DNA from: a virus
Taxonomy: Duplodnaviria > Heunggongvirae > Uroviricota > Caudoviricetes
DNA: 64,000 nucleotides
Virus record (IMG/VR): IMGVR_UViG_3300026549_001031
Strand: one strand, 5' to 3'
Part shown: piece after piece, positions 8,877 to 55,859 of the stretch
How positions within the stretch are numbered: position 1 is the first letter of the stretch
How the letters are laid out: every line of letters begins with the position of its first letter
Position numbers and translations under genes: made by a program
The notes under the pieces: model-generated
The model's input: the letters and a program-made list of their open reading frames with translations, nothing else
Told to the model about the DNA's origin: nothing
Databases searched by the model: none

Positions 8877-8973
8877 ACATTAAATTTGACAGAATGGTGT
8901 TTAGATGTTAAAATAGTATTTGTAAGTGAGAGAGATATTAAAGAAAAGTTAAAAAAATAAATGAAATTGTTTA

Positions 8974-9002
8974 TTGACTTTTCTGGAAGGAAATGGTATA
9001 AT
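8974..9002 (+). promoter_or_regulatory. sigma-A promoter for tRNA-Gln / large ncRNA / tmRNA transcript
   Basis: TTGACT-17-TATAAT with extended -10 TG and upstream A-tracts. Confidence 0.8.
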
Positions 9003-9079
9003 AAATAATGTTGAGAGAGATAAGTGATAGACATTAAGAAATGTAAGGAGCATATCTAATCAACATAATGTTAAGGTTT

Positions 9080-9152
9080 TGGGCATTCGCCAAGTGGTAA
9101 GGCACGGGATTTTGATTCCCGCATTACGTTGGTTCGAATCCGACATGCCCAG
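9080..9152 (+). tRNA. tRNA-Gln(UUG)
   Basis: TGGGCAT/ATGCCCA acceptor, cggga-TTTTGAT-tcccg anticodon arm, GGTTCGAATCC T arm; no encoded CCA. Confidence 0.95.
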
Positions 9153-9211
9153 TTCCGGGGAGGGATAAACCGTTAAGACAACCTGCCTGGTATGGAACAA
9201 AGTGTTCCATT

Positions 9212-9900
9212 TAAAATTTATATGTTGCATTTTGGAAGTGATTGAGCAGGATAACGCGAGCTTTTAGCATGAACGTTGTTTGTAGCAAGGCAAATGTACA
9301 TAGTACGTTTAAGAGATCACCGACTGCATTGATTGGCGAGTTGAGGATGCAGGGCTTGACAAGGGTAGTCAAGTCGAATATGAATGGATGCGGCGTAGGA
9401 GGCGGTTGGCAATTCCGAGTTGAGGATATGCTTAGGATGCGCCTCAGCCGGTCCGTGAGATGAACTCGTGTGAACCCGCATGGGCGTGATGTAGTGACCA
9501 AGGGAGATGACATTGTTGCAGGATAACAGTGTTAGCTACATCATGTAATTAAAGCTTGGCGCAGCTATGATGCGATAAGTACATAGAGGGCAACATGAGT
9601 GACTTAGCATTAAGTCATTTAGCATTGTTGATGTGTCGTATGTGGAGAGGTAAGGCGACAAAGTTAATATCCAATACGCGTTAAGGGTATTCGCGACTAC
9701 ATTGATCTTCAACTGAGGCAGAGAGGTTTGTTGGGATTGGTTCACACAATTATGCAGGTGGGCACCATTTCGGATCATTGGTGTCATTGAAGGATAAGCC
9801 GGCATCGCAGAGGCAGGCAGGCAGTAGATGAAAGGTGCGAACTTAAGGTAGTGATCAGGTGAGTCACTAGTGTAGGTTGGAGTAATCATTGTAGATTTAA
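9212..9900 (+). ncRNA. large (~690 nt) structured non-coding RNA, family unassigned
   Basis: GC-richer than flanks, no credible ORF, many local and long-range helices (e.g. 9468-9476/9739-9747, 9485-9495/9535-9545). Confidence 0.75.
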
Positions 9901-9923
9901 TGAAATGTTTGGAGGAAAGTGAA

Positions 9924-10055
9924 ATGAACAAAGAAGCAAAGATTGCATTAGCAGAGAACAGACTCGCTAATCTTCAGGGAAGTCCTAAGAACATCAAGTG
10001 TCCTGGAGTAGCACGTAAGGTAGCACGTCAGTTGCGTAACCTTAAGAGGGACTAA
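9924..10055 (+). CDS. 43-aa basic peptide MNKEAKIALAENRLANLQGSPKNIKCPGVARKVARQLRNLKRD
   Basis: GGAGG RBS at 9911, ATG 9924, TAA 10053-10055; below ORF-track cutoff. Confidence 0.7.
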   Translation: MNKEAKIALAENRLANLQGSPKNIKCPGVARKVARQLRNLKRD

Positions 10056-10182
10056 TACATAGAACTTGTAGGTAACAATTATTAGAAGTTAGACCTGGTT
10101 GAGAGGTTGAACTACTCATTCATTACTTCTAGTGACAAGGAAAACCTTGGGTTAAACCTTCAAAAATAAAACAATAAAACAT

Positions 10183-10549
10183 GGGCTAGCTCTGGTTTCG
10201 ACAGGGGCTTGAAAGCAAAATACGACAGCAAGGGTGGATTCCCTTAACAGCCAAACAAAAATAAATGCTGACGAAAAATTAGCAATGGTTGCCTAGTTTA
10301 TTCTGGGTTTAACCCTCTTAGCTGATAGAAGCCATAGGTATTCAGTAAGAGTTAAGAACGATTGGCATTGTTGTTGATTCACAGATTCTCAGAACGCATT
10401 GACGGCATGAAAGAGTGAGATGTCTTATGTTAAATGCTTTAGGTAGCATAGTCAGTAAGAGGAAGGCTTTGACAAATACCGAGAGATTGCTGTAGTGATG
10501 TATTTGTAAGTACAGTTTTTGGATAGGGGTTCGACTCCCCTCTAGTCCA
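10183..10549 (+). ncRNA. ssrA: tmRNA (SsrA), tag (A)ADEKLAMVA
   Basis: GGGCTAG/CTAGTCC acceptor with G3-U, GGTTTCGACAGGG 5' signature, GGTTCGACTCC T arm, tag ORF 10267-10296 after ATAAAT. Confidence 0.95.
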
Positions 10550-10615
10550 CTGGGCACCATTCAGAGGAATGGCTGTCCTGATTTCCCAATTTTCACATTA
10601 AACTCAATCTTAAGG

Positions 10616-10660
10616 AAAAGGAGGTGCACATTATTGAAATGTGTGCCTCCTTTTTCTTTT
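10616..10660 (+). terminator. Rho-independent terminator
   Basis: ggaggtgcacatt/aatgtgtgcctcc stem followed by T-tract. Confidence 0.85.
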
Positions 10661-54295: not shown

Positions 54296-54360
54296 GTTTG
54301 AGGTGCCTACAGCAATTTTTAAATCACATTAGGCATGTATGAAATGTGCACCTTGTAAAC
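54296..54360 (+). ncRNA. YUACAGCAAU-module RNA, leader copy 2
   Basis: gtttG-aggtgc-CTACAGCAAT ... gcacct-TGT-aaac, abutting RBS. Confidence 0.75.
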
Positions 54361-54374
54361 AGGAGGAAAACAAA

Positions 54375-55859
54375 ATGGGTTTAGGATCAGCAATCAGAGA
54401 AGAGGCGTCATGGGGAAAAACGACCAATGGTGCAGATGCAAGGGTAGCAACTGGCAGTGCTTTGCTTGATATGTTTGGACGTGCAGGAGCAATGCGTGGA
54501 GCAGATGAGATTGATAAGCAGATTATGATCTCACAGGCATTCAAGGAAAATGCAGACTTCGCAGTGAAGTTATTGTTCTACACGAGAGATGTTCGTGAGG
54601 GCTATGGTGAAAGAGATACCTTCCATACCATGTTAAGATGGCTTGCATTTGAATCAAAAGAGTCAGTGGAGAAAAATCTCTGGGCAATTCTGGAGTTTGG
54701 AAGAGCAAGTGACCTTTATGCACTTGTTGGAACACCTGCAGAGGATGCAATGTGGGAGTTTATGAGAAATCAGTTCGAACTCGACTACAAAAACATGCAG
54801 GCAGGTAAGAGTATTTCACTACTTGCAAAATGGATGGCTTCGCCTAATTCAAGAACAGCTAAGAAAAAGCAGCTTGGTAAACTGACAGCTAAGGCACTTG
54901 GCTACTCATACAAAAATATGAGAGAGCTTAAGCAGAAAATCAGTGCAATGCGTAAATACCTTGATCTGCCTGAAGTAAAAATGGCAGCAGGCAAGTGGGG
55001 CGAGATTGAGTACAGTACTTGCGCATCGAAAGCACTTCTGTATCACAAGAATGCATTTGCAAGACATGATATGCAGAGATGGCAGGAATACCTGGAGTCA
55101 GTTAACAAGGGCGAAGAGAAGATGAATACAGGCACTTTGACACCTTGTGACATTGTTGCAAAATACAATGACCTGTCTAATGTAGACAAGGCATTGGAGA
55201 CAATGTGGGATAACCTTGAGGATGTAAACGATGGCAATGTGCTTGTAATGGCAGATACATCAGGTTCAATGTTCCACAATCATTTTGGAGGATTAAGACC
55301 TATTTACGTGTCAGTTGCATTGGCAATTTACTTTGCTAAGCATAACAAGGGAGACCTCAAAAACTTGTTTATGACATTTGAGAGTAATCCTCACTTCATT
55401 GAAATTAAGGAGGCTTCACTGTTTGATACAATTCATGCAGTAAAAAAGGCAGAATGGGGCAATAGTACAAACCTTGTGAAAGCATTTGATAAATTGCTTG
55501 AGGTCTGTGTTAAAGGTGGTGTGTCACAGGAAGATATGCCTAAAGCAATCCTTGTTGTTTCTGATATGCAGATCAATTCAGCATCAAGTGCTTGTGATGG
55601 GGAGGGTCGTATCAGTTTCTTTGAAAGCATGTCTAAGAAATATGAGAAGGCAGGATACAAAATGCCACAGCTTGTATTTTGGAATGTAAATGCAAAGAGA
55701 GCAACATTCCATGCATCAAAAGATGATGCAGGAGCATCCCTTGTAAGTGGATTTTCAGTGAATGTGTTTAAGCAGGTCATCGAATGTATTGGTTCTACAC
55801 CATACGAGTTGATGATGAGCATTCTTGAATCCGAGAGATACAAGGACATTGTTGCATAA
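54375..55859 (+). CDS. DUF2828 family protein (TROVE/Ro60-like helical domain + vWA)
   Basis: TTNGA...TGSALLDMF, FYTRDVREGYGER, SLLAKW, MIDAS DTSGSM, WGNSTN, SDMQI, FWNVN; AGGAGG RBS at 54361. Confidence 0.88.
   Translation: MGLGSAIREEASWGKTTNGADARVATGSALLDMFGRAGAMRGADEIDKQIMISQAFKENADFAVKLLFYTRDVREGYGERDTFHTMLRWLAFESKESVEKNLWAILEFGRASDLYALVGTPAEDAMWEFMRNQFELDYKNMQAGKSISLLAKWMASPNSRTAKKKQLGKLTAKALGYSYKNMRELKQKISAMRKYLDLPEVKMAAGKWGEIEYSTCASKALLYHKNAFARHDMQRWQEYLESVNKGEEKMNTGTLTPCDIVAKYNDLSNVDKALETMWDNLEDVNDGNVLVMADTSGSMFHNHFGGLRPIYVSVALAIYFAKHNKGDLKNLFMTFESNPHFIEIKEASLFDTIHAVKKAEWGNSTNLVKAFDKLLEVCVKGGVSQEDMPKAILVVSDMQINSASSACDGEGRISFFESMSKKYEKAGYKMPQLVFWNVNAKRATFHASKDDAGASLVSGFSVNVFKQVIECIGSTPYELMMSILESERYKDIVA

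What the first reader, a model, noticed from the sequence alone, without database searches (positions are those of the whole stretch)
9212..9900. ~690-nt ornate non-coding RNA between tRNA-Gln and tmRNA
Seen: a stretch visibly richer in GC and CpG than the coding DNA, with no RBS-led ORF. Long-range helices: GTGTGAACC 9468-76/GGTTCACAC 9739-47 (perfect 9 bp), 9387-94/9798-9806, and end-closing pairs 9238-44/9883-89 and 9214-22/9890-98. Local helices: 9485-95/9535-45, 9508-17/9525-34, 9596-9606/9611-21, 9324-30/9346-52, 9353-60/9368-75, 9419-25/9442-48, 9761-67/9779-85. It lies between the promoter at 8974 and the terminator at 10616. Known: GOLLD and ROOL are large RNAs of unknown function found beside tRNAs in Firmicutes phages. 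Inference: a member of those classes or a new large RNA class.
Basis: partly seen in the sequence, partly recalled or inferred. Interest (0 to 1): 0.8.

Follow-up and report, generated by a model that had tools for sequence, protein, structure and literature searches.

The report
New large folded RNA gene family
Giant mobile DNA elements of gut bacteria carry, between a tRNA gene and the ribosome-rescue RNA gene, an abundant RNA of about 740 bases. It has an elaborate conserved fold that matches no catalogued family and probably sticks to copies of itself, as the cage-forming ROOL and GOLLD RNAs do.

Summary
Real, and longer than reported: about 9154-9897, starting right after tRNA-Gln(UUG). 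I found it in 50 loci from two element types: ~390-550 kb (rumen/human gut) and ~240-270 kb (human gut). It lies between tRNA-Gln and tmRNA wherever the flanks are present. Core structure: 61 pairs, 98.6% paired, 29 with two-sided changes (0/500 shuffles). The core has an invariant CCAAG/CUUGG pseudoknot, a covarying loop-loop kiss, and a self-complementary loop (ACGCGU or GCGCGC) in every member. Rumen RNA libraries from four studies hold it; in one, its contig depth is ~4200 against 5-21 on flanking genes. Rfam gives no hit at E<=10, while true ROOL (130-359 bits) and GOLLD (165-190 bits) controls ring. ROOL/GOLLD consensus motifs are absent, apart from a weak ROOL-like 3' tail. Core alleles only 34-45% alike swap inside flanks that are mostly 90-98% alike, and there are three interchangeable 3' modules. 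Best reading: a new class of large ornate RNA, probably homo-oligomeric, in a translation-rescue operon. Oligomer and function are inferred. The scan had not noted it on other DNA.

The parts
8974..9002 (+). sigma-A-type promoter with extended -10 (a second one at 8886-8914)
   Evidence: 11 of 12 consensus bases, TG; conserved; RNA depth rises only downstream of it
9079..9153 (+). tRNA-Gln(UUG); directly upstream of the RNA in all homologues with intact flanks
9154..9897 (+). large ornate non-coding RNA, about 740 nt; ends approximate
9155..9210 (+). two 5' hairpins (9155-63/9182-90; 9192-99/9203-10), shape kept with different sequence in the other element type
9238..9320 (+). multibranch domain closed by 9238-43/9315-20, after an invariant GGAAG
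   Evidence: helix 1: 3 of 6 pairs with two-sided change
9324..9375 (+). tandem hairpins 9324-30/9346-52 (loop with conserved GUUGAG) and 9353-60/9368-75 (kissing loop, 9363-66)
   Evidence: helices 2, 3
9384..9456 (+). extended arm (9384-89/9451-56, 9391-94/9447-50, 9399-9404/9440-45); a short hairpin in other alleles
9465..9484 (+). hairpin whose loop (9474-77 ACCC) kisses 9363-66 GGGU; the other alleles use AUCA x UGAU
   Evidence: helix 4 (2 of 4 pairs two-sided); swapped loops do not pair
9485..9566 (+). most conserved domain: helix 9485-95/9535-45, hairpin 9508-17/9525-34, invariant pseudoknot CCAAG 9498-9502 x CUUGG 9555-59
9596..9660 (+). hairpins 9596-9606/9611-21 and 9634-38/9656-60
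   Evidence: helices 9, 10
9666..9691 (+). hairpin 9666-72/9685-91 carrying a self-complementary loop, ACGCGU at 9677-82 (GCGCGC in other alleles): candidate intermolecular kissing loop
   Evidence: helix 11 (5 of 7 pairs two-sided); 26 loci ACGCGT, 24 GCGCGC, no other form
9697..9894 (+). exchangeable 3' module (type A of three) closed by a long helix 9697-9714/9875-94; inner hairpins 9761-67/9779-85 and 9850-55/9863-68
9924..10055 (+). 43-aa basic ORF (KNIKCPGV motif) after a GGAGG ribosome-binding site; absent in the ~260-kb element type; its relatives sit in phage tRNA islands, often near ROOL
10183..10550 (+). tmRNA, tag ADEKLAMVA
10612..10658 (+). probable intrinsic terminator (21-nt inverted repeat with T run)
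   Evidence: depth falls after about 10550; not flagged by the scan

Best explanation
A previously uncatalogued class of large ornate non-coding RNA carried by giant gut mobile elements. It is co-transcribed from the 8974 promoter with tRNA-Gln, a small ORF and tmRNA (operon inferred; continuous RNA contigs seen). It is probably released by tRNA 3' processing (5' end about 9154-9163) and trimming to the 3' closing helix (inferred; weak hint from contig ends). It folds into a pseudoknotted core plus a swappable 3' module (shown by covariation). It most likely works like ROOL/GOLLD: an abundant RNA-only homo-oligomer built through kissing loops, especially the self-complementary CGCG loop at 9677-82 (inferred, about 0.55). 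Its most likely role, given the operon and the element's SmpB, Clp ATPase, RtcB and HAD-SAK genes, is to help keep translation running under RNA-damaging attack. It would do so as a stable shelter or decoy for tRNA/tmRNA or for host RNases (inferred, about 0.3). The confidence given is for 'real, expressed, structured RNA of a class distinct from ROOL and GOLLD'.
For: Fifty loci carry the motif set, with conserved tRNA-Gln > RNA > tmRNA order in two element types whose fetched flanks share no protein. Covariation: 98.6% paired, 29 of 61 pairs two-sided, 0/500 shuffles, slid controls 34-46%; 3' module 97%. Indels are mostly not multiples of three. Expression: 12 RNA runs from 6 bovine-gut studies hold it. 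In X1 (no base differences) the RNA-tmRNA contig has depth 4208 against 5-21 on flanks; in three other runs, one of only 7-8 Mb, only the RNA operon is assembled. No Rfam hit for the window or 9 homologous loci at E<=10, while controls score 130-359 (ROOL) and 165-190 bits (GOLLD). A ROOL profile finds all ROOLs and no member of this family. The loop palindrome switches between two self-complementary forms, similar to the signature used for the OLE and GOLLD symmetric bridges (PMC12286853). Neighbouring SmpB, AAA+ Clp, HAD_SAK_2, RtcB.
Against: The members fall into a few clades, so many two-sided changes are single events (window type versus the rest) counted many times. The ACGCGU/GCGCGC change affects positions 1 and 6, which could also pair within one molecule around a CGCG tetraloop, so it does not prove intermolecular pairing. 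Only assembled contigs, not reads, were available: ends, strand and level are not formally shown. The type-A 3' tail resembles the ROOL tail weakly (best p 0.017 uncorrected), and the RNA sits where ROOL sits in phage L082. No experiment bears on function.
Confidence: 0.78

Rival explanations
1. An extremely diverged or chimeric ROOL (common ancestry, or a ROOL-derived 3' end) that the Rfam model cannot see.
For: Same habitat and slot: ROOL starts 36 nt after tRNA-Gln(UUG) in L082. The same 43-aa ORF family lies within 5 kb of ROOL in 8 of 20 phage loci. The type-A tail aligns 16/18 with one ROOL tail and 10/10 with another.
Against: No ROOL hit at E<=10. No profile hit either way; best local match E 0.1. 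Whole-length alignment scores are at shuffle level. ROOL motifs (GGAUAC loop, AAUAGA, UAUAA, GGUGAAA) are absent. There is no long 5'-3' closing P1: the 3' end pairs internally. The tail likeness is absent in types B and C (p about 1).
Confidence: 0.13
2. A monomeric functional RNA: a ribozyme or protein-binding scaffold, for example a processing enzyme for the element's tRNA/tmRNA precursors, or an antitoxin-like ligand.
For: A strictly invariant pseudoknot domain (GACCAAGGGAGAUG ... GCUUGGCGCAGC) inside otherwise freely drifting sequence looks like an active or binding site. The large raiA RNA is monomeric (PMC12286853). The element carries many tRNAs.
Against: No RNase P, group I or group II intron match. 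No spliced joint across it in four RNA runs (table 5). An invariant self-complementary loop is easier to explain by self-association. This rival and the oligomer reading are not exclusive.
Confidence: 0.25
3. Not an independent gene but a structured spacer or processing scaffold of the tRNA-tmRNA operon, or a string of smaller RNAs.
For: Continuous contigs run from the RNA into the ORF and tmRNA in X1 and X6. The 3' module is closed by its own long helix and swaps as a unit. The 5' hairpins also vary independently.
Against: 740 nt of covarying structure with two tertiary contacts. A separate 717-nt contig in two studies (X5, X12). Depth equal to tmRNA's. No pairing to tRNA or tmRNA ends that covaries.
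Confidence: 0.1

Closest known systems
ROOL RNA (Rfam RF03087; PMC5737381, PMC5643018; cryo-EM PMC12286853)
   Same: Large, many-helix, pseudoknotted RNA in Firmicutes mobile elements (phages, megaplasmid); beside tRNAs; very abundant; found in rumen; few invariant bases; neighbour of the same small ORF family; weak likeness of one 3' tail.
   Different: No model or profile match; different conserved motifs; about 740-850 nt versus a mean of 581; no long end-closing P1; exchangeable 3' module; fixed link to tRNA-Gln and tmRNA.
GOLLD RNA (Rfam RF02032; PMC12286853)
   Same: Size class (750-850 nt), position downstream of a tRNA, modular build with one variable domain, palindromic loops that switch between self-complementary forms.
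   Different: GOLLD keeps the 3' domain and varies the 5'; here the middle is kept and the 3' module is swapped. None of the GOLLD consensus motifs is present; no hit.
OLE, ARRPOF, raiA RNAs (PMC12286853, PMC12990946)
   Same: Large structured bacterial RNAs; OLE and ARRPOF dimerise through kissing loops, including GAUC-type palindromes like those in the non-window alleles.
   Different: No Rfam hit; chromosomal, or tied to plasmid replication; different context.

Membership tests
ROOL (RF03087) | Match to the covariance model at or near 99 bits | tested here: not met
   no hit at E<=10 for the window or 9 homologous loci; controls 130-359 bits
ROOL (RF03087) | Conserved motifs and sequence similarity to known ROOLs | tested here: not met
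   profile searches both ways negative; whole-length scores at shuffle level
ROOL (RF03087) | Long P1 joining the 5' and 3' ends | tested here: not met
   3' end pairs with 9697-9714 with two-sided changes; 9214-22/9890-98 has none and overlaps it
ROOL (RF03087) | 3' terminal GUA plus GAAG hairpin | tested here: inconclusive
   type-A tails resemble it, p 0.017-0.15 uncorrected; types B and C do not
ROOL (RF03087) | Beside tRNAs in Firmicutes phages or plasmids; highly abundant | tested here: met
ROOL (RF03087) | RNA-only hexamer or octamer cage | not testable with these tools
   needs mass photometry or cryo-EM
GOLLD (RF02032) | Match to the conserved 3' domain model (150 bits) | tested here: not met
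   negative; controls 165 and 190 bits
GOLLD (RF02032) | Conserved 3' domain with variable 5' domain | tested here: not met
   3' module comes in three unalignable types while the middle is kept
GOLLD (RF02032) | Self-complementary kissing loops | tested here: inconclusive
   palindromic loop in all 50 loci; intermolecular pairing not shown
RNase P / group I / group II intron / OLE / raiA / HEARO | Rfam model match; for introns, removal from the transcript | tested here: not met
   no joint skipping it in RNA contigs
Large ornate RNA as a kind (works-like claim) | Over 500 nt, multi-junction, pseudoknots, covariation support, non-coding, expressed | tested here: met

The most novel reading that the evidence does not exclude
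A third, independently evolved family of RNA-only nanocage, built from a fixed pseudoknotted core and interchangeable modules. Its kissing-loop codes (ACGCGU vs GCGCGC; GGGU/ACCC vs UGAU/AUCA) are allele-specific and are swapped between unrelated giant elements under conflict-type selection, and it serves the tRNA/tmRNA translation-rescue operon.
Probability: 0.4. Interest if true: 0.88.

Novelty: new variant of a known kind. Interest (0 to 1): 0.72.

Why it matters
Bacterial RNAs this long and this folded are rare: rRNA, group II introns, GOLLD, ROOL and few others. ROOL and GOLLD were recently found to form protein-free cages of unknown purpose, and whether cage formation is general is stated as open (PMC12286853). 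A separate family in the same genomic slot tests that directly: one in vitro transcript and a cryo-EM session. Its natural mosaics (alleles 34-45% alike, three 3' modules, two loop codes) show which contacts matter. Its fixed link to tRNA-Gln and tmRNA is a sharper functional clue than 'near tRNAs'.

Tried and rejected
No whole genome was held. BLAST against INPHARED phages and PLSDB plasmids gave only 37-45-nt chance matches; three were opened and lie at an unrelated D-Ala-D-Ala carboxypeptidase remnant or a hypothetical gene. IMG/VR pattern scans gave chance hits or nothing, rejected by nhmmer and by my model. GTDB genomes gave nothing. My core model found nothing convincing in 19 gut phage genomes (best E 0.03, lacking the invariant motif). 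The Agathobacter 252-kb plasmid hit is only an NlpC/P60 domain among chromosome-like genes. Motif look-ups in the stored supplements of PMC12286853 (cut, gapped alignments) and in 200 of 408 files of PMC8040213 were negative; PMC10690425 has no stored supplements. Overlap of fragments with those large candidate lists is therefore not excluded. One search used a mis-registered structure string of mine and is void; one search is the corrected count. Two helix coordinates were likewise corrected. A tempting 9-bp pairing 9340-48/9705-13 covaries in type-A alleles but is broken in recombinants and absent in types B and C, so it is left unresolved. Runs X20-X22 hold none of the stretch and were not used.

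Full report
Observation. The stretch between tRNA-Gln(UUG) 9079-9153 and tmRNA 10183-10550 is GC- and CpG-rich: CpG o/e 0.93 against 0.28, the top 689-nt stretch of the window. All listed helices can form, one only at 6/8. Folding energy alone is weak evidence (z -2.2). Rfam gives nothing but the tRNA at E<=10.

Homologues. The 43-aa ORF downstream led to syntenic contigs. L005 and L008 have flanks mostly 90-98% identical to the window (one adjacent ORF 80%) but an RNA core only 34-45% identical, with islands of invariant sequence. One island, used as a pattern on metagenomes, gave 21 further homologues, mostly on human-gut contigs of up to 240-270 kb. More copies came from flanking proteins on contigs of 390-550 kb. 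In all, 50 fetched loci carry the motif set; some are identical sequences. The order tRNA-Gln > RNA > tmRNA is kept in every homologue with intact flanks. The ~260-kb element shares no protein with the window over the fetched flanks, so the cassette appears to move between different elements. Neither element was found in IMG/VR, GTDB representatives, PLSDB or INPHARED. The 20 window proteins scanned include no virion protein. A giant plasmid-like element of gut Clostridia is the likelier host; earlier unchecked notes report a conjugation-like cluster upstream.

Structure. On 23 distinct core sequences, 61 pairs in 11 helices are 98.6% paired and 29 show changes on both sides. No shuffle of 500 reached this, and slid partners give 34-46%. 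The structure was derived from this alignment and the sequences form a few clades, so the count overstates independent events; but nine of eleven helices have two or more such pairs. Two tertiary contacts stand out: an invariant pseudoknot CCAAG 9498-9502 with CUUGG 9555-59, and a loop-loop kiss, GGGU x ACCC in the window type and UGAU x AUCA in the others. Crossed combinations do not pair. The hairpin 9666-91 shows a self-complementary hexamer in all 50 loci, ACGCGU (26) or GCGCGC (24). The outer pair of the hexamer could close an intramolecular CGCG tetraloop, so this suggests but does not prove a symmetric intermolecular kiss. The 3' part exists in three unalignable types, each opened by a GC(G/A)(A/G)C motif and closed by its own long helix. 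In the window's type this helix is 9697-9714/9875-94. Recombinants join the window core to a different type-A variant (L006, L079), and one core to all three types. Two 5' hairpins at 9155-9210 keep their shape with different sequences. Indels of 1-2 nt dominate among close copies, so it is not coding.

Expression. Twelve RNA runs from six bovine-gut studies hold the stretch. In X1, identical in sequence, the contig 9114-10540 has depth 4208 against 5-21 for neighbouring genes. In X5, X6 and X12 only the RNA operon is assembled, with contigs starting at 9163; in X5 and X12 a separate 717-nt piece ends at 9870-9879. Contigs cannot fix ends, strand or level, so this is a hint of a discrete, abundant ~740-nt RNA cut from a longer precursor.

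Comparison. Real ROOL genes (pMP118 and five gut phages by Rfam) score 130-359 bits and GOLLD genes 165-190 bits in the same tool; ten loci of this family score nothing. A profile of six ROOLs finds three more ROOLs and no member of this family. The consensus motifs printed are absent. Two links to ROOL remain. The 43-aa ORF family lies within 5 kb of ROOL in 8 of 20 phage loci, and in L082 ROOL follows tRNA-Gln(UUG) just as this RNA does. The last 20 nt of type-A modules resemble ROOL tails (best p 0.017 uncorrected). I read this as the same niche and possibly a borrowed tail, not membership.

How it works. Shown: gene, fold, conservation, presence in RNA libraries at high contig depth. Inferred: processing from the tRNA-led precursor; self-assembly through kissing loops as in ROOL, GOLLD and OLE (PMC12286853; about 0.55); a role in protecting the element's translation kit, given tmRNA in the operon and SmpB, a Clp ATPase, HAD_SAK_2 and RtcB in the window, plus allele swapping of the sort seen in conflict systems (about 0.3). 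A monomeric catalytic or protein-binding role for the invariant pseudoknot is the main functional rival.

Verdict. A new family within the known kind of large ornate mobile-element RNAs; not ROOL, not GOLLD. The scan's sequence look-ups found only this same stretch. Interest 0.72.

Noticed in passing
window:9924-10055; L082-L101: An unnamed ~43-aa basic protein family (KNIKCPGV..RK; no Pfam or PHROG) sits in tRNA islands of 100-200 kb gut phages and within 5 kb of ROOL in 8 of 20 loci; a candidate partner of large ornate RNAs or of tRNA islands.
   Followed up: partly
window:55945-56078: tRNA-like gene with a ~60-nt insert in place of the anticodon loop (Rfam tRNA 51.9 bits, missed by ARAGORN), right after a DUF2828/DUF7788 gene (54339-55859); reminiscent of Y-RNA-like tRNA mimics beside Ro60-type genes (from memory, untested). 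One X1 contig joins its 3' end to position 9114 of tRNA-Gln, possibly a library chimera.
   Followed up: no
window:10056-10182: Spacer between the small ORF and tmRNA is 91-98% conserved and folds into a long imperfect hairpin (-26 kcal/mol); some relatives carry an extra ~200-280 nt before tmRNA.
   Followed up: partly
window:9306-9333 and 9679-9706: Internal 28-nt direct repeat (71%) inside the RNA; it explains the alternative pairing 9340-48/9705-13 and may allow strand exchange between domains or subunits.
   Followed up: partly
window:61969-63660: RtcB RNA ligase carrying an intein (Pfam Intein_splicing, PT-HINT).
   Followed up: no
L048:1200-6600: The RNA cassette of the ~260-kb element is joined, at a tRNA-Met, to a chromosome-like polA-mutM-coaE block (names read from the sequences): integration at a tRNA or a misassembly.
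   Followed up: no
L033:8319-9850: About 1.5 kb with a 376-aa ORF inserted between the RNA and tmRNA.
   Followed up: no
L082:3339-3411; L086:7022-7095; L089:7317-7387: Gut phages carrying the small ORF have tRNAs called with stop-reading anticodons (UUA, CUA) by ARAGORN.
   Followed up: no
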